A stretch of 64,000 bases of DNA, from the sequence record PX418922.1. One strand, 5' to 3'. Positions 17,679 to 32,158 of this stretch are shown here, in pieces. Position 1 is the stretch's first letter. Each line of letters begins with the position of its first letter. The position numbers and the translations under genes were made by a program. Origin of the DNA: a phage. Below the pieces are notes generated by a model, which worked only from the letters and a program-made list of their open reading frames with translations, had not been told where the DNA came from and searched no databases.

Positions 17679-17715
17679 TGCCATGAAAGATGGCTAACGA
17701 TGAGAGGAGATTATC

Positions 17716-18090
17716 ATGCAAGAGAGTAAAAATATTCCGTTGAGCAGTGCAGCATTGCTTCGCTTCTATAAAGCATGGATTGCCAACTATCCTGCAATGA
17801 ATCGCACAACGAGTGGCTTATGTGGTTGTCTGGTGGATTATGTAGATGATTTTGTTGGTGAGACAACTAGAGAAGAAGATAGAAGATGGCGGGATAGTTT
17901 GTTGGACCGTTTGAAATATGAAATGAGGAGACAATTTACATGTGCAGGGCTGGACTATAATCTTCCGTTCAATGCAGATTGCATGGATTACCTTTCAGAG
18001 TGTATAAACTTGGCGTGTCATACCAACACGTTACGTCTTCAGTGGGTGAAAGACAGAATTGAAGATGCAAATAATGTTTGCATTGAATAA
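17716..18090 (+). CDS. GLCxCL-family small protein (124 aa), paralogue set member 1
   Basis: RBS GAGGAG; motifs FYKAW..YP, GLCGCL, C-terminal LRLQWVKDR shared with 22323, 28117, 29422 ORFs. Confidence 0.6.
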   Translation: MQESKNIPLSSAALLRFYKAWIANYPAMNRTTSGLCGCLVDYVDDFVGETTREEDRRWRDSLLDRLKYEMRRQFTCAGLDYNLPFNADCMDYLSECINLACHTNTLRLQWVKDRIEDANNVCIE

Positions 18091-18359: not shown

Positions 18360-18360
18360 T

Positions 18361-18582: not shown

Positions 18583-18594
18583 AGGTTGTGTGCA

Positions 18595-18834
18595 ATGATC
18601 ACACCACAACAGAATGAAGCAGCAATGGATCTTCTTGATAGTTTGTATTTCGATAATTGGTACTCTGAATGTGAATGGATGAATATGCAAACTCTGAAAG
18701 AGAAGACAAAAGCGTTGATTACAGTAGATCAATTTCTTGCAGAGACGGAAAGAATGAATTATGATATGGCATCTCGCGCACGACGCGTTTCCATTTTCAA
18801 TAAAATGTTAGCATTATGGGGAGGTAGAAAATGA
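18595..18834 (+). CDS. hypothetical protein (79 aa)
   Basis: ATG 18595 after AAAGG; in-frame GTG at 18586 possible. Confidence 0.5.
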   Translation: MITPQQNEAAMDLLDSLYFDNWYSECEWMNMQTLKEKTKALITVDQFLAETERMNYDMASRARRVSIFNKMLALWGGRK

Positions 18835-19292
18835 GACAACCATCTATACTGGAAGCGCATGTGCAATGTGTTGTAGATTATGTCAAAGAACACTCAAGTT
18901 TGTTGAATGTAACCTGTGCAGTGCAAAATGATGTAGGTATTGTCTGTGTGCAACATATCTTATCTGAAACTCGTTATGAAGTATTTCGTGCCACGTTGTT
19001 TGGATGTGATCGAGTGCATGTAAACTTCCTGGACTCCAATTATCGTTATGCTTTAGAAAATATTGATGATTATCTTCCTTGCTCTCCGACAGGATATGTA
19101 ATGGTAACAGCAAACGAAGTAACACCGAGCAACAGTGAACAGGAAGCTTTGTTACGGAAGAAAATACGCCAACTGCAAGTGTTGAATGAACTGAAAGAAG
19201 AGATTGAAAAAGAACTGAAAGAAGATTTTGGTATGCTTCCAAAAGACGCTTTGAAATGGTATGATGAGTTAGGAGGAGAGAACAATGTTTAA
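18831..19292 (+). CDS. hypothetical protein (153 aa)
   Basis: RBS GGAGG; ATGA overlap with upstream ORF. Confidence 0.55.
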   Translation: MRQPSILEAHVQCVVDYVKEHSSLLNVTCAVQNDVGIVCVQHILSETRYEVFRATLFGCDRVHVNFLDSNYRYALENIDDYLPCSPTGYVMVTANEVTPSNSEQEALLRKKIRQLQVLNELKEEIEKELKEDFGMLPKDALKWYDELGGENNV

Positions 19293-19743
19293 AGAAGGTC
19301 ATGTCTACCGTTTCCAGGATGAGGATTATATGCGATTATATTCTACCTTTGATAACAGTATTGCTGCTATCATTGGAGAGAATTTTTTCGAGGTGTTGAG
19401 CACTGATGCAAATGGTAATATCTTGTCAATGGTTGTAATAGGTATGAGAGACGGTATTATCACTGCTGGTGATGGGGATCGTTACATAATCAATTCTGCT
19501 CATATAGATTATTTTGTTGACGGTGGTGTTCGTGGTGGTCGTGGAAAACCCCAAGAAGAACCTGTTGATACAACAAAAGAAGAGTGGTATGTTGTAATGA
19601 CTGATGACACCTGTATTTCTGGATTTGAAAGTTATGAAGAAGCTTTGAAAGAAGCAGCAGAGCATAAAATGGCTAATCCTACAGAAGAGGTTGAAGTTTA
19701 TAAACGTTTGGTTGTTGCTACCATCGGCGTATCTTTTGTTTAA
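19285..19743 (+). CDS. hypothetical protein (152 aa)
   Basis: RBS AGGAGGAG; overlaps upstream stop. Confidence 0.55.
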   Translation: MFKEGHVYRFQDEDYMRLYSTFDNSIAAIIGENFFEVLSTDANGNILSMVVIGMRDGIITAGDGDRYIINSAHIDYFVDGGVRGGRGKPQEEPVDTTKEEWYVVMTDDTCISGFESYEEALKEAAEHKMANPTEEVEVYKRLVVATIGVSFV

Positions 19744-19755
19744 AAGGGGAATGTT

Positions 19756-20193
19756 ATGTTTAAAGTTAATGCTGTTTACTGTTTCAAAAGTAAAGCTGCC
19801 TGTGAAGCTTTCTCTATGATCTCTGATGAAAATTTCAAAATGGCAGCTTTGATTGAAGGGTCTTGTTTCCGCGTCGAGGATGTTAGTGAATCAGGGTCTG
19901 TTTGCTCATTGACTTTATTGGACAGCGGGGATATTATTGAAGCTGGACAGTATCCGTTCAGGAGTTGGGAGATATTGTTAGCTCGCGGAGAGCGTAACTT
20001 TTTTATGTGCGTGTCTGCGGGGGAAGTTGTGAAAGAAACTAAGGATGTTTCTGTTTACAATTCTGAATTTATAAGTTATAGTGAGTATCAACATCTGGAA
20101 GGCATTGTTGGTCACTTGTTATCTCTGATTGACATTGAATGTGACCTGCCTGAATCATTGAAAGAAGAGTTGAAAGCATTAGATCTGCTGTAA
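19756..20193 (+). CDS. hypothetical protein (145 aa)
   Basis: RBS AAAGGGG before ATG. Confidence 0.55.
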   Translation: MFKVNAVYCFKSKAACEAFSMISDENFKMAALIEGSCFRVEDVSESGSVCSLTLLDSGDIIEAGQYPFRSWEILLARGERNFFMCVSAGEVVKETKDVSVYNSEFISYSEYQHLEGIVGHLLSLIDIECDLPESLKEELKALDLL

Positions 20194-20296
20194 TGTTTCG
20201 CACAACGGAGACTAAGCATGTCGATTGTTTACCTGGCTGTTTGGTTCCGCTGTGATTTGTTTGTCCTGTCGGGGCATTTTTAGGAGTCTGGAAGTA

Positions 20297-21277
20297 ATGG
20301 CTAAAACTAAAAGTTGGGAAGAACATTTAAAAGATTGTTTAGAGGTTGTAAAACCAGGTGTTAAGATACTAGGATGGTCAGGAGAATGGAAAGGAGCACA
20401 TACCCGTTTGCGGTGCGTGTGTTCTGTTCACGGGGAATGGACTTCCACCACAATACATAAGTTTAAAATGGGGAGAAGTTGTCCAGGTTGTAGGACAGAT
20501 GCTTCAGCCCATGCTAGACACAACGGAGATAAGTTTTGGTTGGATTTGTTGTATAATTTTTGTCAAGAACGAGATTTCTTTTTTGAAGTGCCTCAACCTC
20601 CTATCTACGGTAGGTCTGAAATCAAGATCTGCTGCCCGAAACACGGTACATTTAGAAGTACACTAAGTAATATACAAAAACAAAGATCATGTCCCATGTG
20701 TAAAGTAGATGCAGCCAGAGAGAATAATCTTTTACCTGACCAATATCACGTGGAGAAGTACATGGCGACAGGTTCTTTTCCACAGGGCAGTTTATTTCGT
20801 AGAATAGGTAAAACAAGAAGTTCGAAAGGTTCAGCACAAACATGGGAGTGCTACTGTCCCACATGCAATGAAACACATCTTGCACGTGATAGCAATCTGG
20901 CTCAAGGTAAGCGACCATGTTCTTGTTCAGGGAATAATCAGAAGCAAGCGTACATTAATGTGGTATTTGACAACAACACTCCTATAGCTTTAAAGTTTGG
21001 AATAGCAAGAAACAGTGCACAAAGATTAGCCGCACAAAATAAAAAGAATTTTTTGAAGATGGATTGCTTGGCGGTATATTCTTTCAGAACAGTCAGAGAA
21101 TGTAAAGCTGCGGAACGCGCTTGTAAGAGGATGCTGGTCTGTAGTACAGTAGGTAAGAAAGAAATGGTTGACGGGTATACTGAAACAACATATATTTCTA
21201 ATTACGATACAATTGTGGATATCTATAAGAAGTTTGGAGGTGTGAAGTTGCAAATGATAAAGAAGAGTACCGAGTGA
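20297..21277 (+). CDS. Cys-rich protein, paralogue of 3609-4595
   Basis: RBS AGGAG before ATG 20297; N-terminus MAKTKSWEEHLKDC parallels MAAPKSWEQYKEEC; shared ILGWSGEWKG, KQAYIN..ALKFGIA, DGYTET. Confidence 0.55.
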   Translation: MAKTKSWEEHLKDCLEVVKPGVKILGWSGEWKGAHTRLRCVCSVHGEWTSTTIHKFKMGRSCPGCRTDASAHARHNGDKFWLDLLYNFCQERDFFFEVPQPPIYGRSEIKICCPKHGTFRSTLSNIQKQRSCPMCKVDAARENNLLPDQYHVEKYMATGSFPQGSLFRRIGKTRSSKGSAQTWECYCPTCNETHLARDSNLAQGKRPCSCSGNNQKQAYINVVFDNNTPIALKFGIARNSAQRLAAQNKKNFLKMDCLAVYSFRTVRECKAAERACKRMLVCSTVGKKEMVDGYTETTYISNYDTIVDIYKKFGGVKLQMIKKSTE

Positions 21278-21374
21278 GGCGTACACATATCTATTAAATT
21301 TGGATTGTTTATAAAGAAATGGATCTAAACGGAGCATATGAGTGGATCACTATTGATTGGTCGGAGGTGAAATA

Positions 21375-21584
21375 ATGGTTACTATCACGTTGACAGTTAC
21401 ACAAGAGCAAGCAGAAGAATTACGTGATGCACTGGCATATATGGGACGCGCTTATTATATGCCTCACAAATCTCAAGATGTTTTTGCTACAGCCGTTGAG
21501 AAAGCTTTAAACAAATACCGAGAAACTCATGCCGTTCCTAAAGTATCAGCAGAAGAGTTTGGCACTTGGCACGAAGTTCACTGA
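21375..21584 (+). CDS. hypothetical protein (69 aa)
   Basis: RBS GGAGGTG before ATG 21375. Confidence 0.5.
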   Translation: MVTITLTVTQEQAEELRDALAYMGRAYYMPHKSQDVFATAVEKALNKYRETHAVPKVSAEEFGTWHEVH

Positions 21585-21595
21585 GGAGGTTTCGA

Positions 21596-21849
21596 TGAAA
21601 GGTAACAAGATGAAAGTTAATCAAGTGCCGAGCGCATACACTTTGTGGCTTGCGCGAGCGTTACACCAGACGATCAAAGACCCTAAGAAGCCAATGAAGA
21701 GTGGGAAGAAGTTTATGTCTAAGGGCAAAACAACCTTTGGCTTCACTCGTATGTCTGTTAAGATGAAAAGGCTGGGGGGTACAAGCCAAACTACGCTCGT
21801 TACCCTTCTGAATACAACTGGTTTGATTAAAGAGGAGAACAAAACATGA
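21596..21849 (+). CDS. small basic protein (84 aa)
   Basis: RBS GAGGAGG before ATG 21596; Lys-rich, possible nucleic-acid binding. Confidence 0.5.
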
Positions 21850-22130
21850 AAACATCTATTCGCGTAAAACATGATCCAAACAGCAGTTACCCATATGTGT
21901 ATGTTGAACGTCATGAAGGGGACTATTACACCATAAAACGTAAAGTCCCAACTGATACAGGGTTTAACTTTGATGTTATTGCACTGGATGATCAAGGTGT
22001 TGATAATCTGGTAAATGCATTACTCGCATTGAAGGAAGTACGACATGAAAATCAGACTAAAGGTAAAGTGGCTTTCGATTCTTGTGATCGTTTAGCCGAA
22101 GAGATTGCCGAATGGCGTGATACTCACTAA
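21846..22130 (+). CDS. hypothetical protein (94 aa)
   Basis: RBS AGAGGAG; ATGA overlap. Confidence 0.55.
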   Translation: MKTSIRVKHDPNSSYPYVYVERHEGDYYTIKRKVPTDTGFNFDVIALDDQGVDNLVNALLALKEVRHENQTKGKVAFDSCDRLAEEIAEWRDTH

Positions 22131-22145
22131 AACAGGAGAAAGATT

Positions 22146-22322
22146 ATGGCTACTTTTCAACAACTGAAAGATGTTTCACGTTTAGTAAGAAAAATCCGAG
22201 AAGCAGACGCTGCTGTGCGGAATGCATTAACGCCAGCAGAGCGTGAAGATCTTGAAGAGGAGGTGAAAACAGCCGAGAATGCTTTTGCTGCGTATCTTTC
22301 AACACTGTATACAGGAGGTTAA
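22146..22322 (+). CDS. hypothetical small protein (58 aa)
   Basis: RBS ACAGGAG before ATG 22146; fills gap between neighbours. Confidence 0.45.
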   Translation: MATFQQLKDVSRLVRKIREADAAVRNALTPAEREDLEEEVKTAENAFAAYLSTLYTGG

Positions 22323-22637
22323 ATGTCAGAAGAACTTAAAGAATTTTATCAAGCATATCATAACTGGCTGTTAGCTGGTGCTCCAGATAATAATCCTTTC
22401 TGGCATGATAAAGGATTATGTAGTTGCCTCTACCTTTGGACTGGAGGTTATGATGATCTAAATTATGAAATGCAAATGCAATTCCGTGAGGCAGGATTGT
22501 CTGAAGAATACCCGTTTGATGACGGAGACTGGTTTAAATATGATTTTGCACAAAGAAACGGGCTATTGCATTTGAATGCTGCCCGTATAAAATGGGTAAA
22601 AGACCATGCTACACAGGAGGATGTGCAATGCCAATAG
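22323..22637 (+). CDS. GLCxCL-family small protein (104 aa), member 2
   Basis: RBS AGGAGG; FYQAYHNWLLAGAP, GLCSCL, ARIKWVKDH motifs. Confidence 0.6.
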   Translation: MSEELKEFYQAYHNWLLAGAPDNNPFWHDKGLCSCLYLWTGGYDDLNYEMQMQFREAGLSEEYPFDDGDWFKYDFAQRNGLLHLNAARIKWVKDHATQEDVQCQ

Positions 22638-22828
22638 TGTTTAGTTTCTTAGTAATTGTTATGGTTGTTCTTTTCGCGGCATGGCTTTGGGATTTTGACC
22701 CAGGAGCAGCGCAGCAAAGAGCTACAGACTGGAAAGAACAATGTATTGTGCTCAAACATGAACGAAATGCGGAGAAATTTCTTGACCTAGAGTGTGATCG
22801 CCTTGTAAGATACAAGCAAGATAAATAA
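22628..22828 (+). CDS. small membrane protein (66 aa)
   Basis: RBS GGAGG before ATG 22628; hydrophobic PIVFSFLVIVMVVLFAAWLW. Confidence 0.45.
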   Translation: MPIVFSFLVIVMVVLFAAWLWDFDPGAAQQRATDWKEQCIVLKHERNAEKFLDLECDRLVRYKQDK

Positions 22829-22842
22829 CCTTGAGGTGCAAA

Positions 22843-23031
22843 ATGGTAATTGAGATTAAACTTGAATATGCTGGGGCTGTTGCTCTGATCGCACAAATGC
22901 TTGGAGCAAAGATTGAAGAAGTGTATATCAATGCCTGGAGCGTAGAGATTGATGTTCCTATGGACAACATTGCTAATCGCTTGCTGGTGGCAGAGTGTGA
23001 ACGCACCAACATAATCTACAAAGGAGCATAA
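22843..23031 (+). CDS. hypothetical protein (62 aa)
   Basis: RBS GAGGTG before ATG 22843. Confidence 0.5.
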   Translation: MVIEIKLEYAGAVALIAQMLGAKIEEVYINAWSVEIDVPMDNIANRLLVAECERTNIIYKGA

Positions 23032-23032
23032 T

Positions 23033-23254
23033 ATGAAAATTAGAGTTTGTGATGTATTGGGTTATGTTGGTTTTGAGAATGTTCAGATTCCTTTTGTTGT
23101 TGAAGCACATCTTGTTAGCGACGATATGACAACATTCTTTGTTACGATAGAAGAAATGTCCAAAGTTGAGGGATGGGAGTGGTTTGAAGAAGATGTTTGG
23201 GAAGGTTGTGATTACGTATTTTTCTCTGACGAAGTGAATGTTCTTGCGGAGTAG
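23033..23254 (+). CDS. hypothetical protein (73 aa), paralogue of 18361-18582
   Basis: RBS AAGGAG; shared WEWFEED.WEGCDYVFF block. Confidence 0.5.
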   Translation: MKIRVCDVLGYVGFENVQIPFVVEAHLVSDDMTTFFVTIEEMSKVEGWEWFEEDVWEGCDYVFFSDEVNVLAE

Positions 23255-23256
23255 GT

Positions 23257-23463
23257 ATGTCTTGTTTTACAAAAGCAGTGTCCATATGTAAGAAACAGTA
23301 TGAAAGTGATTACGGAATATTTAATATTCCAGCAGATCATACAAAGTATTGTTCATGTGGTGGCAGAATGAAGAAAACAGTGATTTATGCGGATAGTGGA
23401 GACGAACTTGTTCCGGTTATGGTTTGCAAAGCTTGTCATTCTGTTAAAACATTAAAAGCGTAA
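23257..23463 (+). CDS. Cys-containing small protein (68 aa)
   Basis: RBS GGAG; Cys pairs CSCGG and CKACH suggest a zinc-binding fold. Confidence 0.5.
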   Translation: MSCFTKAVSICKKQYESDYGIFNIPADHTKYCSCGGRMKKTVIYADSGDELVPVMVCKACHSVKTLKA

Positions 23464-23558
23464 GGAGTCGGGACACCCGACGATTGGAGCTAAAAATTTT
23501 GCGTACAACCCTTTCCGCCCAACAGGGGCGCGTCGGGTAAATAAAGAGGAGAGTTTAT

Positions 23559-23957
23559 ATGAAAAAGATCATCGTAGGTTTATTGTTACTCATTGCATCA
23601 CTCGGAACAGCAAATGCGTCTCAAGTTTATGAGTGTGTGTCAGATGTGGTTGTTAAAAATCTGAAAGGTGAAGTGATTTCTGGTCCTAAGAAAATGGCTT
23701 CTGTTGTCATTAATAAAGATAACTCCTTTATCCTTAAAAATTCAGGTGGTGCTTTGATGAGTGGCATTCTGCAATACACAGGAGAAAAAAGTAAAGATGG
23801 TAGTGCTATGTATGGTTCACAACAGTTTATTGGCACTACTGAAGTTGTGATGATGCGCACAGAGTATCGAGACACTTTAGCTTGGTTTGCATTTCTAAAA
23901 AATGATAAAACAATAACAAATGTTCTTACTCTAGAAGCCGATTGTACGCAACGATAA
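23559..23957 (+). CDS. secreted protein (132 aa)
   Basis: RBS GAGGAG; signal peptide MKKIIVGLLLLIASLGTANA. Confidence 0.55.
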   Translation: MKKIIVGLLLLIASLGTANASQVYECVSDVVVKNLKGEVISGPKKMASVVINKDNSFILKNSGGALMSGILQYTGEKSKDGSAMYGSQQFIGTTEVVMMRTEYRDTLAWFAFLKNDKTITNVLTLEADCTQR

Positions 23958-23967
23958 GGGGGTATTT

Positions 23968-24423
23968 ATGACTAAAGTGCGACATTACGCTGTAAACTGC
24001 AACGATGCTTGGCGTTTGTGTCCTGATGATCCGACAGAAGGCACATTTGTAAGATATGAGGATTATAAAGAATTATCGGATGCTGTAATCGCATTGTTAA
24101 CTGATATCCGTTCACGTTATCCAGGACAAGATTTCACTTGCCCTCACATCAAACTTCTTGCTTGCCTGGTAGAAGGTGAGAAAGAAGTGGAAGATGGCTT
24201 CAAGCGTGTAGAGTATCAAGGTGAAACTTTAGATGTTCCTGAATTTGTTAATTATATTGCAACAGATTCGAGTGGCGAGCGTTATGGTTACACTCATAAA
24301 CCGGAGATTCCAGATTTCGCTTATGCGTGGCGTATTCCTTATGAAGTTTTTAATGTTGCAGATTGCTGGTATTTAGGAGAAGGAAACAACCTTAATTGGC
24401 GTGATTCCTTGGTTCAGGTTTAA
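23968..24423 (+). CDS. hypothetical protein (151 aa)
   Basis: RBS AAGGGGG before ATG. Confidence 0.55.
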   Translation: MTKVRHYAVNCNDAWRLCPDDPTEGTFVRYEDYKELSDAVIALLTDIRSRYPGQDFTCPHIKLLACLVEGEKEVEDGFKRVEYQGETLDVPEFVNYIATDSSGERYGYTHKPEIPDFAYAWRIPYEVFNVADCWYLGEGNNLNWRDSLVQV

Positions 24424-24427
24424 CAAT

Positions 24428-24691
24428 ATGAAAGAGACATTGCCAGCAGCATACCGTTTGAATGATGAACGTATTTGGGAGTGGACCGACGTTTCTTGTT
24501 TTTACCCTGAAATAGTTCAATATTGGCGAGCAAAAGGGTGTGTTGTAGTTATCAACCCATGTGGACCAGTGGATGAAGATTGCTTGTATCTCGATGGAAA
24601 GTGGCACAGTTATTGTCGCTGGCCTTTTGAGTGGATGTGTAAAGAAGATCTCCCAGAGGGTTGGGAGTATCCAAAAGCAAATAGGAGATAA
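24428..24691 (+). CDS. hypothetical Cys/Trp-rich protein (87 aa)
   Basis: ATG 24428 just after upstream stop; alternative GTG at 24401. Confidence 0.45.
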   Translation: MKETLPAAYRLNDERIWEWTDVSCFYPEIVQYWRAKGCVVVINPCGPVDEDCLYLDGKWHSYCRWPFEWMCKEDLPEGWEYPKANRR

Positions 24692-24692
24692 T

Positions 24693-25055
24693 ATGTCTAA
24701 AGATTTTGTTGAAATGTTTGTCAAAGATGAAGAAACTGGTTTAGGCACAGGTTTCATTTGTGAAGAAACCTTTAAACGTGAACAAGAAAAAGCTATTCTT
24801 ATGCGAAACTATGATCACGCATTAGAACAATGGAAAAATGCAGAACAAAAATGCAAAAACCTTTATGCAGAAAATAGAAAACTACAAGATCAAATGGAGT
24901 TGTTAGCTATCAGTTTACGATCTCTCATTTTGGCTGTAGAAGATGGTTTTAAAAATCCAGATGGTTTTCCTGTGAGCGATATTGAACATGATTTGTATCT
25001 TGCTCGTGGTGCTTACTTCTATGTTAAACAGAAGTCTGTAGAAGGAGAGAAGTGA
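24693..25055 (+). CDS. hypothetical protein (120 aa)
   Basis: RBS AGGAG before ATG 24693. Confidence 0.5.
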   Translation: MSKDFVEMFVKDEETGLGTGFICEETFKREQEKAILMRNYDHALEQWKNAEQKCKNLYAENRKLQDQMELLAISLRSLILAVEDGFKNPDGFPVSDIEHDLYLARGAYFYVKQKSVEGEK

Positions 25056-25252
25056 TGGAAGAAAAACTGGAACGTATTATCGAGTTAGCCATGTCTATTG
25101 GCTACGACGATTGTTTTCTCCAAACTATTGGAGAAATAGAGAACGATTACGACTCTTGGGTGAAAGAGTTGGAAGAACTTAAAACTTCCTTGATTGCTGA
25201 CTTTGCTGAAGCAGAGGATAAAGCAGATCGTTACAACTATCTGTGTCGATAA
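25052..25252 (+). CDS. hypothetical protein (66 aa)
   Basis: RBS AAGGAGAG; ATGA overlap. Confidence 0.5.
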   Translation: MMEEKLERIIELAMSIGYDDCFLQTIGEIENDYDSWVKELEELKTSLIADFAEAEDKADRYNYLCR

Positions 25253-25255
25253 AGC

Positions 25256-25283
25256 TTGACACACGCTTCCTGTATGGTATGCT
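25256..25283 (+). promoter_or_regulatory. sigma70-like promoter
   Basis: TTGACA 25256-25261, 16-nt spacer, TATGCT; TTACCACATCAAG start region resembles array units but no GC hairpin. Confidence 0.45.
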
Positions 25284-25312
25284 TACCACATCAAGACAAT
25301 AAGGAGAGAAAA

Positions 25313-25657
25313 ATGACTAAACTTTTGTGCGTATCATCTTCCGTTCCATATTTCACTGTTGGTAAGCAATACCCTGTGACAAATACGGACGAGGATGTAG
25401 ATTACTACTGGATCAATAGTGATGACGGAACAGATTGTGTTATTGAGTTGAGAATGCGCTGCGCCACTTTTGAGGTGGTAACTGAAAACGTGATGCGTCT
25501 TTTCGAGATCCGATATACAAAAGATAACGGCAGTATTAAAACTTATCAGATCCCAGCCCTTTCTATCTACGACGCATGTGTACGTTTGGGTCAGATTTAC
25601 GGGGACGATAAATACTACCGTGACGATGTGTCCATTCATGTGGTAGAGGTGGTGTAA
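25313..25657 (+). CDS. hypothetical protein (114 aa)
   Basis: RBS AAGGAGAG before ATG 25313. Confidence 0.55.
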   Translation: MTKLLCVSSSVPYFTVGKQYPVTNTDEDVDYYWINSDDGTDCVIELRMRCATFEVVTENVMRLFEIRYTKDNGSIKTYQIPALSIYDACVRLGQIYGDDKYYRDDVSIHVVEVV

Positions 25658-25658
25658 T

Positions 25659-25931
25659 ATGAATAAAGATCGGTTTCTTTCTTTAGTCGCGGAAGCTCCT
25701 TTTGATGTTCTTGGGGTGAGATTATGGAAAGACAGAAACTATGGGTTAGATGTTCAAACATACTCTCTTTGGTTGGTTGGGGAGCACAGCTTAGATGAAA
25801 GCTTGTGCATGGGTAGGGATTCTCGTTCCCTCTGTTTAAAGTTCAGAAGCTTAGAACGCGCAAACAAAGAGCAAGAAAAACTAACGAGGTGGCTAAATGA
25901 AAACAAGCGCAAGGTTGATGGAGTTTTATAA
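25659..25931 (+). CDS. hypothetical protein (90 aa)
   Basis: RBS GAGGTGG before ATG. Confidence 0.55.
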   Translation: MNKDRFLSLVAEAPFDVLGVRLWKDRNYGLDVQTYSLWLVGEHSLDESLCMGRDSRSLCLKFRSLERANKEQEKLTRWLNENKRKVDGVL

Positions 25932-26101
25932 AATTTATCTAGCATGGATTGATGTTGGTGCTCCTGATGGTAAACCTTTTCGGCGGGATTGACTTTGGGT
26001 CATTGTTTGGCAAACATTGAAGATGTTGTGATCCAAAGGGTTGTTTTAGAGAAAGAGGCTATTTGAGAGAAGACGGCACAATACTTAAATATAAAGATTA
26101 A
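25918..26101 (+). pseudogene. decayed GLCxCL-family gene remnant
   Basis: MEFYKIYLAWIDVGAPDGKPFRRD* matches family N-terminus; downstream frame-shifted ILKYKD* matches C-terminal (I/L)KWVKD; ~184 nt vs ~320-375 nt for intact members. Confidence 0.45.
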
Positions 26102-26118
26102 CCACAAAGGAGATAGAT

Positions 26119-26418
26119 ATGCAAGTTGAAGACCTGATTAAAATTTTGAATGAAGCTAAAGAGAAAGGTGCTATCAAGGACTGGAAACGTGAAACAAGTG
26201 AAGACCTATCTCATTGTTGCCGAGAGTTTTACATCGAAGGTATTGCTGACGATCATTATACTATCGAATGGTATATCAACTTAATGACCCTTAAGCACGG
26301 TTCATTTGAGATTTGGTTTGATGACATTGATGTAAATGGTTTTCATCCTGGCTATAAAATCGCTATGCAGTTATCTTATCGTAGAGAAGTTGTAGCACAT
26401 TTGGGTTTACATAACTAA
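26119..26418 (+). CDS. hypothetical protein (99 aa)
   Basis: RBS AAGGAG before ATG. Confidence 0.55.
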   Translation: MQVEDLIKILNEAKEKGAIKDWKRETSEDLSHCCREFYIEGIADDHYTIEWYINLMTLKHGSFEIWFDDIDVNGFHPGYKIAMQLSYRREVVAHLGLHN

Positions 26419-26428
26419 GGAGAAAAGA

Positions 26429-26752
26429 ATGCAAGCAGTTGTTAACGAAGCTATTATGAACTTATCCTTCTTGTTAGCTGGTTTAGGAGGTGTTCTCATA
26501 GGTTTGGCTCTTATCTGGTGTATTCGTCGATTAATCGGGTACCGACAAAAAGGTGTTTCATGTTTTGTATCTTACAATTTTACAACTGCTTACAGCAATG
26601 AAGTTGGATCTGGTAATGCTCAAGCATTTTTACCAACATATCCTCCTACGGTGGAAGATATTCGAAACTTGGAAGTACAACTTATGGGACTAGGTGATAA
26701 CTATACATCTCTAGTTATTCAAAATATTTTTCGACTAAAACAGGGGGCGTGA
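26429..26752 (+). CDS. membrane protein (107 aa)
   Basis: RBS AAGGAG; N-terminal TM segment LSFLLAGLGGVLIGLALIWCI. Confidence 0.55.
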   Translation: MQAVVNEAIMNLSFLLAGLGGVLIGLALIWCIRRLIGYRQKGVSCFVSYNFTTAYSNEVGSGNAQAFLPTYPPTVEDIRNLEVQLMGLGDNYTSLVIQNIFRLKQGA

Positions 26753-26965
26753 ATGAAGGTACATTACCCTCATCCATTTGATCCTAAAAACAAAGCCGTA
26801 ATTCTTCGTCAGTGGCAACGGGTTTGTCGTACTAAATGTCCAATCAATAGCCCACACAATGTAGACAAGGACTATCTTGGGACATTTGTTGAATACACTT
26901 ACATAGACAAAAACAAGCGTAAACAGCATGTCGAGGAATACTGCTTAAGAGTAGAATGGCTGTAA
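26753..26965 (+). CDS. hypothetical protein (70 aa)
   Basis: RBS GGGGG; ATG overlaps upstream stop. Confidence 0.5.
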   Translation: MKVHYPHPFDPKNKAVILRQWQRVCRTKCPINSPHNVDKDYLGTFVEYTYIDKNKRKQHVEEYCLRVEWL

Positions 26966-26977
26966 ATAATAAATACC

Positions 26978-27006
26978 TTGACAAGTGTTTATTCGTTTTG
27001 TAAAGT
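26978..27006 (+). promoter_or_regulatory. sigma70-like promoter for recombinase gene
   Basis: TTGACA 26978-26983, 17-nt spacer, TAAAGT 27001-27006. Confidence 0.5.
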
Positions 27007-27035
27007 GAGAATACAGCAATGGTTTAGGAGTGGTT

Positions 27036-27707
27036 ATGAAAAAGTTTGTTGTTTACAGTCGTCTTTCTAAACAGAAAAAAGGTGAGGCACAATATGGTAT
27101 GGAGAGCCAAGAGAATGATATCCGTTACTTCTTAGACTCTGTGCCTGATGCGGAAGTTATTGGTCAATTTTCTGAATACTATTCGGGTAAGGGCGATTGG
27201 AAGCAACGTAAGGAACTGGTTAAAGCGGTTGAAATGTGTAAAGCTACCGGAGCAACTTTATTGGTAGCTAAAGTTGACCGCTTGGGTCGTAACAACGCCT
27301 CCGTAGCAACTCTTCTAGAAATGATCGATGTTAAGATAGCCATTATGCCAGACGCAGATAAAATGGTTATACAGCTTCTGTCTGTTCTGGCTGAACAAGA
27401 AGTTAGAGGTATTGCTGATCGTATTAAAAAGGGTCTTGCTGTAGCAAAAAGCAAAGGTGTTTTATTAGGCAGTGCTAATCCTAAAACTGCCGCTGCACGT
27501 AGAAAAGGAAAAATGGAATACAACTCTGTTAAAGCAGACGCTTTTGCAGAGACATTCCGTGAACGCTTGGAGATCCTTAGAGATTTAAATACACCTTACA
27601 AAACTATTGCTGAAAAATTCAATAGTAAGAAAATAGCAACAGCACGTGGTGGTAAATGGGATGCTAAAACTGTTTCTCGTTTGTGTGCCAGACTGAACAT
27701 TAAATAG
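27036..27707 (+). CDS. serine recombinase (resolvase/invertase family)
   Basis: N-terminal VYSRLSKQ (catalytic Ser context), LLVAKVDRLGRN motif, C-terminal basic HTH-like region; RBS AGGAG. Confidence 0.65.
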   Translation: MKKFVVYSRLSKQKKGEAQYGMESQENDIRYFLDSVPDAEVIGQFSEYYSGKGDWKQRKELVKAVEMCKATGATLLVAKVDRLGRNNASVATLLEMIDVKIAIMPDADKMVIQLLSVLAEQEVRGIADRIKKGLAVAKSKGVLLGSANPKTAAARRKGKMEYNSVKADAFAETFRERLEILRDLNTPYKTIAEKFNSKKIATARGGKWDAKTVSRLCARLNIK

Positions 27708-27715
27708 GAGAGGAT

Positions 27716-28138
27716 ATGAAACAAGAAAATGAATCTGTAGATCACTTAATCATGCTGTCAGCCCTTTTTGCCGGATGGGACGTATTTTTTGAAAATTTGT
27801 TCAATTCTGCTACAGATGGTTCCGATTTTATGCGCCAGTTTAAACGACGAACTGTTGAGGACTATGCTTTCTATTCAGGTCGGATTGAAAAAGGTTACGA
27901 AGATACAAATACAACACTCACCATTAAAGTTTTAGATGTGATGTTTAGTGTTATAGATGCTATCGACGAAAGTCTTCCGATCCTAGACAATTGTAATACG
28001 AAAGCCTATGTTTACAAAATAGCTCGTGCTTATGTGTCTGCAAACAGTTGTCTTCTTTCCACCCAGATTGCCGTGAACAATCTTGCCAACTTGTTTGATG
28101 AAGGAGAAACTTTTTATGACAATCGATTTGAAGTGTAA
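27716..28138 (+). CDS. hypothetical protein (140 aa)
   Basis: RBS AGGAGAGG before ATG. Confidence 0.55.
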   Translation: MKQENESVDHLIMLSALFAGWDVFFENLFNSATDGSDFMRQFKRRTVEDYAFYSGRIEKGYEDTNTTLTIKVLDVMFSVIDAIDESLPILDNCNTKAYVYKIARAYVSANSCLLSTQIAVNNLANLFDEGETFYDNRFEV

Positions 28139-28481
28139 GAGGATTCTTTTAGATTTCTATAATAATTGGTTAGAACACCTCCGGCTCTTTCCAAGAGAAA
28201 GTGGTTACGCTGATGTTGGCTTATGCCGAGGTCTACGTATGTATATAAGTGGTGAATTTCGGGCCGAGCATTCTTTAGCATATTCTGTTTATGGTATGCA
28301 ATTAGCCAGTTTTGAAAACGCTGGCTTAGATACAACTTTCCCATTTAACACAGCAAAATCTTTTGAGCAAGAGTGTAAGGAAAAACGTTGCATGTTTAAT
28401 GAAAAACGTGTACAGTGGGTTAAGGATCGAGTTAAACAACTGGAACAAGAGTTGGATTTCTTCTATGATGAGGCAGAATAA
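28117..28481 (+). CDS. GLCxCL-family small protein (121 aa), member 3
   Basis: RBS GGAGAAA; FYNNWLEHL, GLCRGL, KRVQWVKDR motifs. Confidence 0.55.
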
Positions 28482-28753
28482 TGGATAGACAAACCTTAAA
28501 AACAATGGCAGATGCCACTAATTCCCCGTACTTTGAAAAAGTAAGTAAATTGGTAGCTAAAGCCGCAGAGGAAGGATATTATAACATAAACATCCATAAC
28601 CCAAGTCTTATACTAGAAATGCCAAGTGATAAGAAGATACAAGAGAGTATCTGTGAAGGTATTGTTAGTTACTGGCGCGAGCGTGGGTGTGGTGCAAACA
28701 TGGCTTTAGACAGTGCAAACATTGTAAGATATATAAATATTTCTTGGGGGTGA
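28481..28753 (+). CDS. hypothetical protein (90 aa)
   Basis: Start overlaps upstream stop (TAATG). Confidence 0.5.
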   Translation: MDRQTLKTMADATNSPYFEKVSKLVAKAAEEGYYNINIHNPSLILEMPSDKKIQESICEGIVSYWRERGCGANMALDSANIVRYINISWG

Positions 28754-28794
28754 TTTTATGATTCAATGCACTCATATCCAAATTACTTGGAGAG

Positions 28795-29370
28795 ATGAAC
28801 TTTACCATTTTGGGACAATTTACTGTAGGGGAAACATACCCTGTCATTAAACATAATCCTAACATCGCAAACTTTGATAGGATGGTTCTTGTTGAGGACG
28901 ATCTGGGTCAAACTTATTCTTTAGATCTAAAATATCCGTTTTCTTACGGCTACGATTGGATCGTTACTTTTGAAGACGTGGAGGAAAATAAAACAATGAA
29001 CGAAAAAAATTCTTGGTATTATCGTTGTGAACTGCCGCCAGTAGGTGAAAAGGTTATCTTTGTTCCTGATTTGGAAAGATATTCTTGGGACAGTTCTTAT
29101 TCTATTCCTAAAGAAGGCACCGAAGTTGAAGTTATTGCACATCGCACAACTTCGCATGGTAACGATGTAGCAGTTGTTTTCTGGGATGATGAAGGTGCTG
29201 CTTGTGCAGGTGGCTTTGTTGCAGGTAATTTTGAACCCCTGCCAGATCCTTTGAAGGAGGCAATTTTAGGCGTAGCTTCTTTTGGACTCTCTTACACATC
29301 TGCACAAGAGATCGTAGAAGGTATTTTAAACGGTACCGTTCCAAACGAAATTTTTAAACAGATTAAATAA
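28795..29370 (+). CDS. hypothetical protein (191 aa)
   Basis: RBS GGAGAG before ATG. Confidence 0.55.
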   Translation: MNFTILGQFTVGETYPVIKHNPNIANFDRMVLVEDDLGQTYSLDLKYPFSYGYDWIVTFEDVEENKTMNEKNSWYYRCELPPVGEKVIFVPDLERYSWDSSYSIPKEGTEVEVIAHRTTSHGNDVAVVFWDDEGAACAGGFVAGNFEPLPDPLKEAILGVASFGLSYTSAQEIVEGILNGTVPNEIFKQIK

Positions 29371-29375
29371 TAGTT

Positions 29376-29400
29376 GCACCCCGTTCTGCGGGGTGTTATT
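29376..29400 (+). terminator. rho-independent terminator
   Basis: GCACCCCG-TTCT-GCGGGGTG hairpin then TTATT. Confidence 0.6.
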
Positions 29401-29421
29401 GTATATGTAAAGGAGGCGCTA

Positions 29422-29760
29422 ATGTATTACACTGAAGACTACATATTGTATAACTTTTTTAAAGGTTGGTTGAAATGGGCGGAACAAGCTCCTGTCGGAG
29501 ATTGTGTTTTTCCTTGGGATTCTCGTCAAGGCTTGTGTCGTTGTTTGGAAGATTGGCTTATAACCACAAACTACAATTCAGAAACTAAGAAATCTACATC
29601 AAACAGATTAAAAATGTTGTTTGAAGAAGATGGTTTAGATCCAATTTATCCTTTCGGTGAGGAAAGTTTCCACAATGGTCTTTTCCTTGGCACTCAACAT
29701 TATGATAAAGATCGTGTAGATTGGGTAAAAGAAAAGGTAGCACAGTATGAATGGGGTTAA
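29422..29760 (+). CDS. GLCxCL-family small protein (112 aa), member 4
   Basis: RBS AAGGAGG before ATG 29422; FFKGWLKWAEQAP, GLCRCL, DRVDWVKEK motifs. Confidence 0.6.
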   Translation: MYYTEDYILYNFFKGWLKWAEQAPVGDCVFPWDSRQGLCRCLEDWLITTNYNSETKKSTSNRLKMLFEEDGLDPIYPFGEESFHNGLFLGTQHYDKDRVDWVKEKVAQYEWG

Positions 29761-29950
29761 GAATTATCACCGCTGGTTAGAAAGCTATCTTAAGAAATGT
29801 GAACTTGGTGTTCCAGGTTATACTTACGACACGGACGAGATCCTTGATGAAATGGAAGTTTGGTTTAAAGAGCCTCGTGAACTATTGGAAAACATTCTAA
29901 TGGCTTGGGATGGTACGGCACAAAGCATTGAAGGAGGTAGAAATGAGTAA
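29747..29950 (+). CDS. hypothetical protein (67 aa)
   Basis: Overlaps upstream gene end; weak RBS. Confidence 0.45.
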   Translation: MNGVKNYHRWLESYLKKCELGVPGYTYDTDEILDEMEVWFKEPRELLENILMAWDGTAQSIEGGRNE

Positions 29951-30077
29951 GAAATTGTTTAATATTCGTGAGAATCGTGATGGATCGTTCTCTGTAGTCA
30001 ATGAGTTTAATGTTTCGGTTGGGACTTTTATTACTAAACGTCAAGCAGAACAAGTAAGAGATACTTTAAACAAGTAA
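29943..30077 (+). CDS. hypothetical small protein (44 aa)
   Basis: RBS AAGGAGG before ATG 29943; below ORF-track cutoff. Confidence 0.4.
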   Translation: MSKKLFNIRENRDGSFSVVNEFNVSVGTFITKRQAEQVRDTLNK

Positions 30078-30094
30078 ATTTTTAAGGGGGACTT

Positions 30095-30514
30095 ATGTTA
30101 GGTAAGATCAAAGCTTTTTTCAAACGTATTGTTGAAGGAAGTCCAACAGAAGGTGCATTAGGAAGATCTCTAACAGGAGAACCGCTTGCCATAATTTCTA
30201 TCAGTCGGTATGGTGGATATTCAATTAAACAAACACCTTTAGGTATAGAAGGTAGTATGCTTTCTTGGACAATATCTCAAGTTGGTGATAACAGGCTTGC
30301 AGCTATAGCATTGCTTCGTGGGGAGTATGACTATTGTTTATCAGCGCCTTGTAAAAAGCATCTCATAGAGCACATTAGAGATAGAGTAGAAAGAGAAGGC
30401 GGATACTTCTTCGAAACTAAGAGAAACGAACAAGGAACTCTTGACTTCACTAAGGTTTACTGGGACAATCATACTCGTCAAACTGTTGAACAACTTCTGG
30501 AGGAAAGATGTTAA
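30095..30514 (+). CDS. hypothetical protein (139 aa)
   Basis: RBS AAGGGGG before ATG. Confidence 0.55.
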   Translation: MLGKIKAFFKRIVEGSPTEGALGRSLTGEPLAIISISRYGGYSIKQTPLGIEGSMLSWTISQVGDNRLAAIALLRGEYDYCLSAPCKKHLIEHIRDRVEREGGYFFETKRNEQGTLDFTKVYWDNHTRQTVEQLLEERC

Positions 30515-30717
30515 AAGCTTTTGCTGTATACTCTACTGTAGGATTCTTTTATTGGATTATAGTTGTTGTTGGATGTTGGTTGGGTTCTTCTGTTGTGATG
30601 GGAGAATGGTTAACATACAATGTATTTGAATGGAATGTAGTTTGTAGATCATTACTTGTTATATGGACTGCTATTGTTTGTTGGATAACTGTTAGTCTAA
30701 CATTAGATCTATATTGA
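30508..30717 (+). CDS. membrane protein (69 aa)
   Basis: RBS GGAGG; two hydrophobic segments. Confidence 0.5.
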   Translation: MLKAFAVYSTVGFFYWIIVVVGCWLGSSVVMGEWLTYNVFEWNVVCRSLLVIWTAIVCWITVSLTLDLY

Positions 30718-31010
30718 TTAATAGATGGTAGATAGATGATCATAGTTTATCTACCTTCACTTACGTTTCATACCTCACTATCGTGAGTAACATGAAACAT
30801 TATTATATAGAAATCTACTACTCGCTATCGCTCGTAAACATATGTTTAGGGTACCATATTTTTTTGAAAAAGTCAATGCTGATTCACCTATCAATTATCT
30901 GTTTAAGATAAATCTTACCTATCAATCTAACTCTTAACTAGTATTGCACCTATAGTAAGACTATTCCTATAGTTATTAACCCTCTTCTTCTGTAGAATGT
31001 AATTAGATCC

Positions 31011-31040
31011 TTGACAAACTCACAAAGCTTGTGTTACATT
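31011..31040 (+). promoter_or_regulatory. sigma70-like promoter
   Basis: TTGACA 31011-31016, 17-nt spacer, TTACAT/TACATT; follows 300-bp non-coding gap. Confidence 0.4.
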
Positions 31041-31077
31041 GTGTCTCACAAGTGAATAATACCGAACAGGAGGAAGA

Positions 31078-31293
31078 ATGAGTTCCAATTTTCTATACAA
31101 AGCAAAAGATTCACGAGATGGAGAGAACCATTGGTGGTTGATCACAGAAGATGGTGTTATCATCCTACCGTGGGACGGAGAGACGAAAGTTCAAATACTA
31201 GAGAAAGTAAAAGGTGTTAGTTTTAATGTTAATCATGATATAACAACTTTCAAAGCTTTTGCTATGAATCCTAGTCTTGTTGCTGAATGGTAA
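31078..31293 (+). CDS. hypothetical protein (71 aa)
   Basis: RBS AGGAGG before ATG; C-terminus ..LVAEW. Confidence 0.55.
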   Translation: MSSNFLYKAKDSRDGENHWWLITEDGVIILPWDGETKVQILEKVKGVSFNVNHDITTFKAFAMNPSLVAEW

Positions 31294-31305
31294 TCCAGGA
31301 GAAGA

Positions 31306-31525
31306 TATGACTAAAATGTATGCAGCCGTTGATAAGCTGGATGGGTCTGATTCTGTTTTTATTTTGAATAAAATGGGTGTCTTAGTTTATGCCCGAACTT
31401 CTCAAAACATAGAGCACCAAGTGGAAGCAGCACAAATTTTAGAGCAAATAACCCCTCCATACCTATACTCAAATGTTGAGCGTTTTAACGATGCACTTGG
31501 TTTGACGTTAATAGCGGAATGGTAA
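31306..31525 (+). CDS. hypothetical protein (72 aa)
   Basis: RBS AGGAGAAG before ATG 31306; C-terminus ..LIAEW similar to previous ORF. Confidence 0.5.
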
Positions 31526-31725
31526 TAATGGCGAAAATGTTGAAAATTGATAATGTCGTAACAATCACTACGTCCATACCTTGTCCTCCTATGCCTTGCC
31601 CCTATTGTGGTGGTGCAGGATATGTTATGGCGGATGTAGGTCAAATTTACGAGTGTAACCCGTGCAAAACCACAGGTTATATCCAAATAGAATCAGAGGA
31701 GAAACACTATGAGCCAAAACGCTAA
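31519..31725 (+). CDS. zinc-ribbon small protein (68 aa)
   Basis: CPYCGG..CNPCK Cys pairs; start ATG 31519 or 31528. Confidence 0.5.
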   Translation: MVIMAKMLKIDNVVTITTSIPCPPMPCPYCGGAGYVMADVGQIYECNPCKTTGYIQIESEEKHYEPKR

Positions 31726-32158
31726 AGAAAAAGAAGTAATCACGGTAATCCGTCAGATGGAAGGTGCCGAAAACAATGCTTTTGTTACTAAGATTCTTCT
31801 TAATATCTTTGAAGATGTTATTTTAAACAATCCTGGTCATAAAGATTATCAGTATGATGTTATGATGGGTGCTTTGCTTGAGATTAACAAAAACACTTTT
31901 GCTGAATATGAGCAACACATGCTTTTACCAGAGGAAGATCAGGATTATTTGTTATCTGGTGCTTTAAGTGCACAAGAAAATTTCTACCACGTTCTTAATA
32001 TGGCTTATGCAGATGAACTTGCTGTCTCCCTTGAAGAGCGGATTCAAATGGTTCGTGACGTAATGAATGAACAAATCCAAGAAGTTGAGGATCTGGTGGC
32101 AGAGCCTTTAGCAGAAATTCGTGCAGCTATTGAAAAACAAAAAGGAACTCAATCATGA
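31709..32158 (+). CDS. hypothetical protein (149 aa)
   Basis: RBS GAGGAG before ATG. Confidence 0.55.
   Translation: MSQNAKEKEVITVIRQMEGAENNAFVTKILLNIFEDVILNNPGHKDYQYDVMMGALLEINKNTFAEYEQHMLLPEEDQDYLLSGALSAQENFYHVLNMAYADELAVSLEERIQMVRDVMNEQIQEVEDLVAEPLAEIRAAIEKQKGTQS

What the first reader, a model, noticed from the sequence alone, without database searches (positions are those of the whole stretch)
25918..26101. Decayed fifth copy of the GLCxCL family
A +1-frame ORF overlapping the end of the 25659-25931 gene encodes MEFYKIYLAWIDVGAPDGKPFRRD*, matching the family N-terminus (compare LKEFYQAYHNWLLAGAPDNNPFWHD). About 100 nt downstream, in another frame, ILKYKD* mimics the C-terminal (I/L)KWVKD. 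The whole locus is ~184 nt against ~320-375 nt for intact members, consistent with an internally deleted, frame-shifted pseudogene and ongoing turnover of the family.
Basis: seen in the sequence. Interest (0 to 1): 0.45.

Follow-up and report, generated by a model that had tools for sequence, protein, structure and literature searches.

The report
Deletion scar truncating a phage paralogue
The short ORF is the first 31 codons of a fifth member of an uncharacterised phage gene family; a 1.1-1.4 kb deletion between two 10-base repeats cut it off and joined it to the tail of an unrelated gene, which is an ordinary kind of gene loss in a phage's accessory region.

Summary
The window is a Phapecoctavirus (phAPEC8-like E. 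coli myophage). It matches phrog_2510 and a family HMM only over their N-terminal ~31 positions. It is about 99% identical in DNA to the 5' end of an intact 101-108 aa gene (phAPEC8_0041 orthologue), which is full length in 66 phage records.

The locus is not one internally deleted, frameshifted gene. At 25982-25991 (GGCGGGATTG) homology jumps 1,384 bp (UP17/ASO2A-type relatives) or 1,078 bp (ukendt/G1-type) to the last 27 codons of an unrelated 137-aa gene (25983-26066). 'ILKYKD*' (26081-26101) lies in the conserved spacer before gene 26119-26418 and has no family signal.

In UP17-type phages the 10-mer flanks the missing block on both sides. One copy remains here, the signature of a microhomology-mediated deletion. 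That block holds two thirds of copy 5, two small genes, a sixth family copy, a predicted terminator/promoter and 110 codons of the 137-aa gene.

The junction occurs in no other searched sequence. ZCKP1 lost copy 5 by a separate 647-bp deletion. The scar is real and ordinary; the family's function is unknown.

The parts
25897..25992 (+). Truncated fifth copy of the family (orthologue of phAPEC8_0041): native start and 35-nt overlap with the upstream gene are kept, then 31 codons and a junction-created TGA
   Evidence: ORF list. 98.8% nt identity to UP17 L001 800-1144, where the gene continues to 108 aa. phrog_2510 E=8.3e-5. Family HMM 26 bits.
25982..25991 (.). Deletion junction: the single retained copy of the 10-nt microhomology GGCGGGATTG
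   Evidence: Both flanking alignments overlap on exactly these 10 nt. The 10-mer occurs at both ends of the missing block in UP17 and ASO2A (L001 1135 and 2519; L004 939 and 2323).
25983..26066 (+). 3' remnant (last 27 codons plus stop, AGLTLGHCLANIEDVVIQRVVLEKEAI*) of an unrelated 137-aa gene that has lost its start and first 110 codons
   Evidence: Identical C-terminus in the UP17, G1 and ukendt 137-aa proteins. That protein hits phrog_37387, not phrog_2510. Family HMM scores are negative.
26067..26118 (+). Conserved intergenic spacer holding the ribosome-binding site of gene 26119-26418. It contains the chance 'ILKYKD*' reading at 26081-26101.
   Evidence: The same spacer follows the 137-aa gene in UP17 and G1, with a 1-nt indel that changes the frame relation. 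No family signal.
25659..25931 (+). Intact upstream gene (90 aa, phrog_4423; phAPEC8_0040 orthologue) whose 3' end overlaps the remnant's start
26119..26418 (+). Intact downstream gene (99 aa, phrog_21861), now brought to 127 nt from the remnant's stop
17716..18090 (+). Intact family copy A (124 aa)
22323..22637 (+). Intact family copy B (104 aa), the window paralogue closest to the remnant
28098..28481 (+). Intact family copy C (127 aa)
29422..29760 (+). Intact family copy D (112 aa)

Best explanation
The locus is the scar of one multi-gene deletion in the early accessory-gene region of a Phapecoctavirus.

The ancestor most likely had the UP17/ASO2A/phAPEC8 gene order: 90-aa gene, family copy 5 (108 aa), 75-aa gene, 70-aa gene, family copy 6 (106 aa), terminator/promoter spacer, 137-aa gene, 99-aa gene.

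Recombination or replication slippage between two 10-nt direct repeats removed 1,384 bp and left one repeat. The repeats are GGCGGGATTG, one in codons 29-32 of copy 5 and one in codons 110-113 of the 137-aa gene. If the parent was ukendt/G1-like, with no copy 6, the loss was 1,078 bp.

The two genes were joined out of frame. Copy 5 therefore ends at a TGA straight after codon 31. The 137-aa gene survives only as a promoterless, startless 27-codon tail.

The remnant lacks every invariant core motif of the family (GLC, PF, R..WVKD), so it is a non-functional pseudogene. It may still be translated into a 31-residue peptide because its start and its overlap with the upstream gene are intact.

Shown: orthology of both flanks, the breakpoint, the repeat, and intact copies in relatives. 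Inferred: the molecular mechanism, the parental architecture, and the lack of function.
For: - Flank homology: window 25647-25991 matches UP17 L001 800-1144 at 98.8%; window 25982-26200 matches L001 2519-2738 at 97.3%. The two alignments overlap by 10 nt, with 1,384 bp between them in UP17.
- All 70 matching phage records break at query positions 133-142, and none spans the junction.
- The exact 10-mer lies on both sides of the block in UP17 and ASO2A. The right-hand copy in G1 and ukendt has one mismatch (GGCAGGATTG).
- The intact orthologue (…PFRRDCGLCANLFDYV…INWVKDRIAEENE) is annotated in UP17, ukendt, G1, ASO2A and phAPEC8. tblastn finds it at >=80% identity in 66 records, and every orthologue row listed covers the full 108 aa.
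- The family alignment shows invariant G31-L32-C33 and P64-F65 and near-invariant R88 and W91, all downstream of the breakpoint.
- Junction sequence is absent from IMG/VR and JGI metagenome contigs.
- Precedent: T4 deletions of 0.7-6 kb in accessory regions are flanked by 6-10 bp microhomologies, of which one copy is retained (PMC9391042).
- Independent parallel: ZCKP1 lost copy 5 through a 647-bp deletion at an 8-nt microhomology, GCAGAGGA.
Against: - No sequencing reads are available, so the junction cannot be checked against the raw data. It is unique to this sequence.
- The parental architecture (1,384 or 1,078 bp) is inferred only from the exact repeat and from which architecture is commoner among close relatives.
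- Nothing here tests whether the 31-codon ORF is translated or inert.
- The function of the family is unknown, so the phenotypic consequence of the loss is unknown.
Confidence: 0.88

Rival explanations
1. One reading: a single family gene shrank to ~184 nt by an internal deletion plus a frameshift, so that both its N-terminus (MEFYK…) and its C-terminus (ILKYKD*) are still visible.
For: The N-terminal match is real. A K-D-stop ending recalls …WVKD. The pattern [IL]K.K[DE] is rare in the window's + strand frames: it occurs once, at this site.
Against: Window 25982-26200 is 97% identical to the 3' end of an unrelated 137-aa gene plus its downstream spacer in relatives. In those relatives the intact copy 5, with its own INWVKD, sits ~1.2 kb upstream. 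The family HMM is negative in all frames of 25993-26118. The best nucleotide match to the paralogues is at chance level, reached by 32 of 200 shuffles. The spacer carries a 1-nt indel between phages, as non-coding sequence does.
Confidence: 0.03
2. The junction is an artefact: either a mis-assembly or a minority deletion variant that arose during laboratory propagation and was picked up by the assembler. It would then not be a feature of the natural phage.
For: The junction is found in no other record among 50,697 phage genomes, IMG/VR or JGI metagenomes. Deletions of this type arise quickly on passaging (PMC9391042).
Against: A 10-nt repeat is shorter than the k-mers or overlaps assemblers normally use, so a collapse across it is unlikely (inference). 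The junction is clean and has the standard biological signature, one repeat copy retained. A comparable natural deletion exists in ZCKP1. A deletion that arose in the laboratory would still be a real deletion by the same mechanism.
Confidence: 0.06
3. The 31-codon ORF is kept as a functional micro-protein: helix 1 of the family fold, for example interfering with or mimicking part of its paralogues.
For: The native start codon, the Shine-Dalgarno-like AGGTGG upstream and the 35-nt overlap with the preceding gene are all intact, so translation is plausible.
Against: The remnant holds essentially only helix 1 of a five-helix domain (helices at residues 3-17, 32-40, 44-56, 70-78 and 86-96 of copy B). 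It lacks all core invariant residues. The stop codon is a by-product of the out-of-frame junction. No other sequence shares the junction, so there is no conservation to argue for selection.
Confidence: 0.03
4. The short form is ancestral, and the relatives gained a 1.1-1.4 kb insertion.
For: None specific. Indel polarity is formally an inference.
Against: An insertion would have to complete two truncated ORFs precisely into full-length members of two established families (phrog_2510 and phrog_37387). 66 records carry the long form and none carries the short form.
Confidence: 0.01

Closest known systems
phAPEC8_0041 (YP_007348409.1) and its orthologues in Phapecoctavirus (UP17 CAA7332575.1, ukendt_107, ASO2A_040; pVOG VOG7392; phrog_2510, function unknown)
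   Same: Same genomic position, same start and overlap with the upstream 90-aa gene, and ~99% nt identity over the first 31 codons. Same family as the four intact window copies.
   Different: The window copy stops after codon 31 of 108. It lacks the GLC, PF and R..WVKD motifs and helices 2-5 of the predicted fold.
Microhomology-flanked deletions of accessory genes in T4 (Srikant, Guegler & Laub 2022, eLife; PMC9391042). Classical short-direct-repeat deletions in T4 rII, T7 and lacI are cited from general knowledge.
   Same: A kilobase-scale deletion in a non-essential early region. A 6-10 bp direct repeat lies at both ends in the parent and one copy is retained at the junction.
   Different: Here the event is inferred from comparative genomics of natural isolates and was not observed in an evolution experiment. 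The selective context (packaging limit, defence escape or drift) is unknown.
Klebsiella phage ZCKP1 deletion at the same locus
   Same: Independent loss of copy 5 by a deletion between short repeats (647 bp, 8-nt GCAGAGGA) in the same gene neighbourhood.
   Different: Different breakpoints. ZCKP1 loses the 90-aa gene and nearly all of copy 5 but keeps copy 6 and the 137-aa gene, and its junction is in frame (a fusion ORF of 57 aa).

Membership tests
phrog_2510 / 'GLCxCL' phage family (function unknown) | Significant profile match | tested here: met
   The 31-aa remnant gives phrog_2510 E=8.3e-5, 26 bits against a family HMM built without it and E=1.5e-6 against all window segments. The match covers only profile positions ~4-36.
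phrog_2510 / 'GLCxCL' phage family (function unknown) | Invariant G-L-C motif at the start of helix 2 | tested here: not met
   G31, L32 and C33 are invariant in 49 sequences. The remnant ends at …PFRRD, one residue before the CGLC of its orthologues.
phrog_2510 / 'GLCxCL' phage family (function unknown) | Invariant P-F and near-invariant R..W(VKD) C-terminal motif; full domain of ~95-125 aa with five helices | tested here: not met
   These are absent. The downstream sequence scores negative in all frames. ILKYKD* lies in an unrelated spacer. Fold from the AF2 model of copy B, pLDDT 91.
Orthologue (pseudogene) of phAPEC8_0041 | Conserved synteny and high nucleotide identity with the intact gene in close relatives | tested here: met
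   98.8% identity to UP17 and 98.6% to ukendt over 25647-25991; window 25850-25991 is 100% identical to phAPEC8, ASO2A and others. The same upstream neighbour and overlap are present.
Microhomology-mediated (short direct repeat) deletion | The two flanks are contiguous here but separated by extra DNA in relatives, and reading frames are truncated on both sides | tested here: met
   A 1,384-bp or 1,078-bp block is missing. Copy 5 is cut at codon 31 and the 137-aa gene is cut before codon 111.
Microhomology-mediated (short direct repeat) deletion | The short direct repeat is present at both ends of the block in the undeleted form, with exactly one copy at the junction | tested here: met
   GGCGGGATTG lies at L001 1135 and 2519 and at L004 939 and 2323. 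It occurs once in the whole window, at 25982.
Microhomology-mediated (short direct repeat) deletion | Junction supported by primary data (reads or PCR) | not testable with these tools
   No reads or biological material are available.

The most novel reading that the evidence does not exclude
The deletion was selected, not neutral. Loss of two members of the family (copy 5 and, in a UP17-like parent, copy 6) together with three neighbouring small genes could let the phage escape a host defence that senses one of these early proteins. Alternatively it could compensate under headful packaging for DNA gained elsewhere, for example the extra gene at 25256-25657 that most relatives lack. The parallel but independent loss of copy 5 in ZCKP1 would then mark this locus as a recurrent target of such selection. 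The family (phrog_2510; >2,000 sequence clusters, a confidently predicted five-helix domain with no PDB match, one invariant cysteine) would be a host-interaction module.
Probability: 0.08. Interest if true: 0.45.

Novelty: new member of a known kind. Interest (0 to 1): 0.15.

Why it matters
It matters little on its own.

- Annotation: 25897-25992 should be labelled a truncated pseudogene, and 25983-26066 a gene fragment. Neither is a new small gene.
- Dispensability: family copy 5 is dispensable for a viable Phapecoctavirus, and probably so are copy 6, the 75-aa, 70-aa and 137-aa genes and a predicted terminator/promoter.
- Mechanism: copy number in this multi-copy family changes by microhomology deletions, with two independent cases at one locus. 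This is the turnover mechanism already shown experimentally in T4.
- The family: it is large, phage-specific, structurally unmatched and uncharacterised. That is the more interesting lead, but it lies outside this finding.

Tried and rejected
- Looked for a function for the family. There were no hits passing thresholds in Pfam-A or NCBIfam. The only PHROG hits have unknown function. All 55 homologues are 'hypothetical' with no Pfam domain. There was no PDB sequence match.
- Searched the literature for phrog_2510 and found nothing. A search for 'phAPEC8' plus 'paralog' listed only the BASEL phage-collection paper, which I did not read.
- Considered whether 'AGLTLGHCL' just after the junction is a decayed GLCxCL motif. 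Rejected: it is the native sequence of the 137-aa gene in all relatives, and that protein has no family signal.
- Considered whether the spacer with LKYKD* is an older family relic. There is no nucleotide or profile support.
- Searched for the same junction elsewhere, to see whether the deletion is shared or fixed in a lineage. There were no matches in the phage records, IMG/VR or JGI metagenomes.
- A simple promoter/terminator scan of the window locus gave nothing above the shuffle expectation.

Full report
**Context**

The window is a member of the genus Phapecoctavirus (Stephanstirmvirinae, phAPEC8-like ~150-kb E. coli myophages). Window 25000-27000 and 16000-32000 match dozens of such genomes at 95-98% identity. 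No record is identical.

The finding lies in a long run of small + strand genes of unknown function, upstream of a serine recombinase/DNA invertase gene at 27030-27707.

**The family**

A motif scan and translation located the four intact 'GLCxCL' genes:

| Copy | Coordinates | Length |
|---|---|---|
| A | 17716-18090 | 124 aa |
| B | 22323-22637 | 104 aa |
| C | 28098-28481 | 127 aa |
| D | 29422-29760 | 112 aa |

- All four hit phrog_2510 (unknown function) at E 1e-24 to 1e-29. None has a Pfam or NCBIfam match that passes threshold.
- A profile of 49 members has invariant F8, W15, G31-L32-C33 and P64-F65, and near-invariant L5, Y9, F54, R88 and W91, in copy B numbering.
- The profile finds 2,117 cluster representatives (50% identity clusters) at E<=1e-3 among 1.84 billion proteins. 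Many carry two or three tandem domains.
- tblastn finds the family in phi92-like, N4-like, Rhizobium, Achromobacter, Erwinia and other phages.
- The function of the family is therefore unknown.

**Checking the observation**

The ORF is real. ATG 25918 gives MEFYKIYLAWIDVGAPDGKPFRRD*. The reading frame opens at ATG 25897 (MKTSARLMEFYK…, 31 aa; stop 25990-25992) and overlaps gene 25659-25931 by 35 nt.

The similarity to the family is well beyond chance:
- phrog_2510 at E=8.3e-5 for the 31-mer alone, aligned to profile positions 4-34.
- 26.1 bits against a family HMM that does not contain it.
- Among all 2,511 stop-to-stop segments of the window in six frames, that HMM hits only the four intact genes and this ORF, at E=1.5e-6.
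- At the nucleotide level, 25921-25989 aligns in register with positions 19-87 of copy B at 68.6% identity, a score reached by 0 of 200 shuffles.

It is met for the right part:
- The best match of 25993-26118 to any paralogue is reached by 32 of 200 shuffles.
- All three frames score negative against the HMM.
- ILKYKD* (26081-26101) matches (I/L)KWVKD only with a gap. It lacks the near-invariant R and W.

**What is really there**

Relatives resolve the locus. In UP17 (L001), ukendt (L003), G1 (L002), ASO2A (L004) and phAPEC8 (L005) the 90-aa gene is followed by an intact 101-108 aa family member with the same 35-nt overlap. This gene is phAPEC8_0041. Its sequence is:

MKTSARLMEFYKIYLAWIDVGAPDGKPFRRDCGLCANLFDYV…LPFNENYDAYVLESDADACHLNVDRINWVKDRIAEENE

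tblastn finds this orthologue at >=80% identity in 66 phage records. Every orthologue row listed covers all 108 residues.

The window matches UP17 in two blocks:

| Window | UP17 (L001) | Identity |
|---|---|---|
| 25647-25991 | 800-1144 | 98.8% |
| 25982-26200 | 2519-2738 | 97.3% |

- The two alignments share the 10 nt GGCGGGATTG (window 25982-25991).
- 1,384 bp of UP17 lie between the two blocks.
- In all 70 matching phage records the alignment breaks at exactly this point, and no record spans it.
- The junction 27-mer is also absent from IMG/VR and from the JGI metagenome contigs.

The right flank is the end of an unrelated 137-aa gene (phrog_37387 N-terminal domain). Window 25983-26066 encodes its last 27 codons, AGLTLGHCLANIEDVVIQRVVLEKEAI*. 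After it comes the 52-nt spacer 26067-26118 that precedes the 99-aa gene 26119-26418.

ILKYKD* sits in that spacer. The same spacer is present after the intact 137-aa gene in UP17 and G1. There it differs by a 1-nt indel, as expected of non-coding DNA.

**Mechanism**

In UP17 and ASO2A the exact 10-mer occurs at both ends of the missing block: L001 1135 and 2519, L004 939 and 2323. The window has it once, at the junction. Adjacent bases add imperfect homology: ACCTTTTC-GGCGGGATTG against ACCTTTCAAGGCGGGATTG.

This is the standard signature of deletion between short direct repeats, by replication slippage or microhomology-mediated recombination. In T4, experimentally evolved clones carry 0.7-6 kb deletions of accessory genes flanked by 6-10 bp microhomologies, with one copy retained (PMC9391042). 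Older examples in T4 rII, T7 and lacI are cited from general knowledge.

The join is out of frame. Copy 5 reads …TTT CGG CGG GAT TGA. The 137-aa gene reads GCG GGA TTG ACT…. This creates the immediate TGA.

The event was not an internal deletion plus a frameshift within one gene. It was a single multi-gene deletion.

In the UP17/ASO2A/phAPEC8 architecture the lost block contains:
- codons 32-108 of copy 5;
- a 75-aa gene (phrog_25020);
- a 70-aa gene (phrog_21106);
- a sixth family copy (106 aa, phAPEC8_0044 orthologue, phrog_2510 at E=1e-30);
- a spacer with a hairpin annotated as a rho-independent terminator in ASO2A, and a near-consensus sigma-70-like promoter (TTGACA-17-CATAAT with TG, 11 of 12 matches; consensus match only);
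- the first 110 codons of the 137-aa gene.

G1 and ukendt lack copy 6. Their block is 1,078 bp and their right-hand repeat has one mismatch, GGCAGGATTG. I therefore favour a UP17-like parent, but this is an inference.

**Consequences**

The remnant keeps its start codon, an AGGTGG upstream and the overlap with the preceding gene. A 31-residue peptide may therefore still be made (sequence reading; not tested). It holds essentially only helix 1 of the five-helix domain and none of the GLC, PF and R..W residues. I regard it as a non-functional pseudogene. The 27-codon tail has no start of its own other than a mechanical TTG.

**Turnover of the family**

- Among the Phapecoctavirus orthologue rows listed, places per genome hit by the copy 5 query range from 3 to 7.
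- Copy 6 is present in some genomes and absent in others.
- Klebsiella phage ZCKP1 lost the 90-aa gene and almost all of copy 5 through an independent 647-bp deletion at an 8-nt microhomology, GCAGAGGA.
- DIJ07P2 has different sequence upstream of UP17 position 2076, with another family copy there.
- Phage BI-EHEC carries copy C with a frameshifted C-terminus (P0026).

**Verdict**

| Question | Verdict |
|---|---|
| Observation | Partly confirmed: the N-terminal remnant is real, the C-terminal 'mimic' is chance |
| Interpretation | Partly supported: a dead fifth copy, but produced by a 1.1-1.4 kb multi-gene, microhomology-flanked deletion that fused it to an unrelated gene's tail |

This is a new instance of a well-known process in phage accessory regions. 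It is private to this genome among the collections searched. Interest is low.

The main caveat is that the junction cannot be verified against reads. The more interesting open question is what the large, structurally unmatched phrog_2510 family does, and that lies outside this finding.

Noticed in passing
L006 (Klebsiella phage ZCKP1) 1815-1870; equivalent to L001 720-1366: Independent 647-bp deletion flanked by the 8-nt microhomology GCAGAGGA. It removes the 90-aa gene and nearly all of family copy 5, and fuses the upstream 65-aa gene in frame to the last codons of copy 5.
   Followed up: yes
L001 2132-2160 (UP17), L004 1937-1970 (ASO2A); inside the block missing from the window: A near-consensus sigma-70-like promoter (TTGACA-17-CATAAT with TG, 11 of 12) overlaps a hairpin that ASO2A annotates as a rho-independent terminator. 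The deletion removed this putative transcription-unit boundary, so gene 26119-26418 would depend on read-through from upstream. These are consensus matches only.
   Followed up: partly
window 25256-25657: This 133-aa ORF (probably starting at the internal MTKLLCV…) is absent from most close relatives, whose homology to the window begins only at 25647. Among the loci inspected only phage G1 has a homologue (114 aa). It is a gain or replacement next to the loss.
   Followed up: partly
P0026 (Escherichia phage BI-EHEC) versus window 28098-28481 and alt-frame ORF 28363-28488: BI-EHEC's copy C has a C-terminus (…HVYSGLRIELNNWNKSWISSMMRQNNG) identical to the window's alternative frame. This is either a frameshifted copy C or a sequencing error in that record. 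P0053 also has an aberrant C-terminus.
   Followed up: no
family-wide: The family profile finds 2,117 cluster representatives. Many of the best are 190-245 aa proteins with two domains, and there is one of 344 aa with three. Tandem duplication and fusion are therefore common in this family, which fits the 219-position phrog_2510 profile.
   Followed up: no
[not shown]
   Followed up: partly
L005 (phAPEC8) 3688-4242 versus L001 2190-2603: The gene downstream of copy 6 exists in two forms that share an N-terminal ~74 aa (phrog_37387): 184 aa in phAPEC8 and 137 aa in UP17 and others. Between L001 2407 and 2644 there is no DNA homology, so the C-terminal part looks like a swapped module.
   Followed up: partly
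L007 (Phapecoctavirus DIJ07P2) 1273-1656: DIJ07P2 shares no homology with UP17 upstream of L001 2076. It carries a different 128-aa family copy there, giving another architecture of the same hypervariable region.
   Followed up: no
phage records: Records named Campylobacter phage B15, Acinetobacter phage vB_AbaM_ABPW7 and a Pseudomonas phage are 98-99% identical to this E. coli Phapecoctavirus locus. The host labels are probably wrong, or the phages may be contaminants.
   Followed up: no
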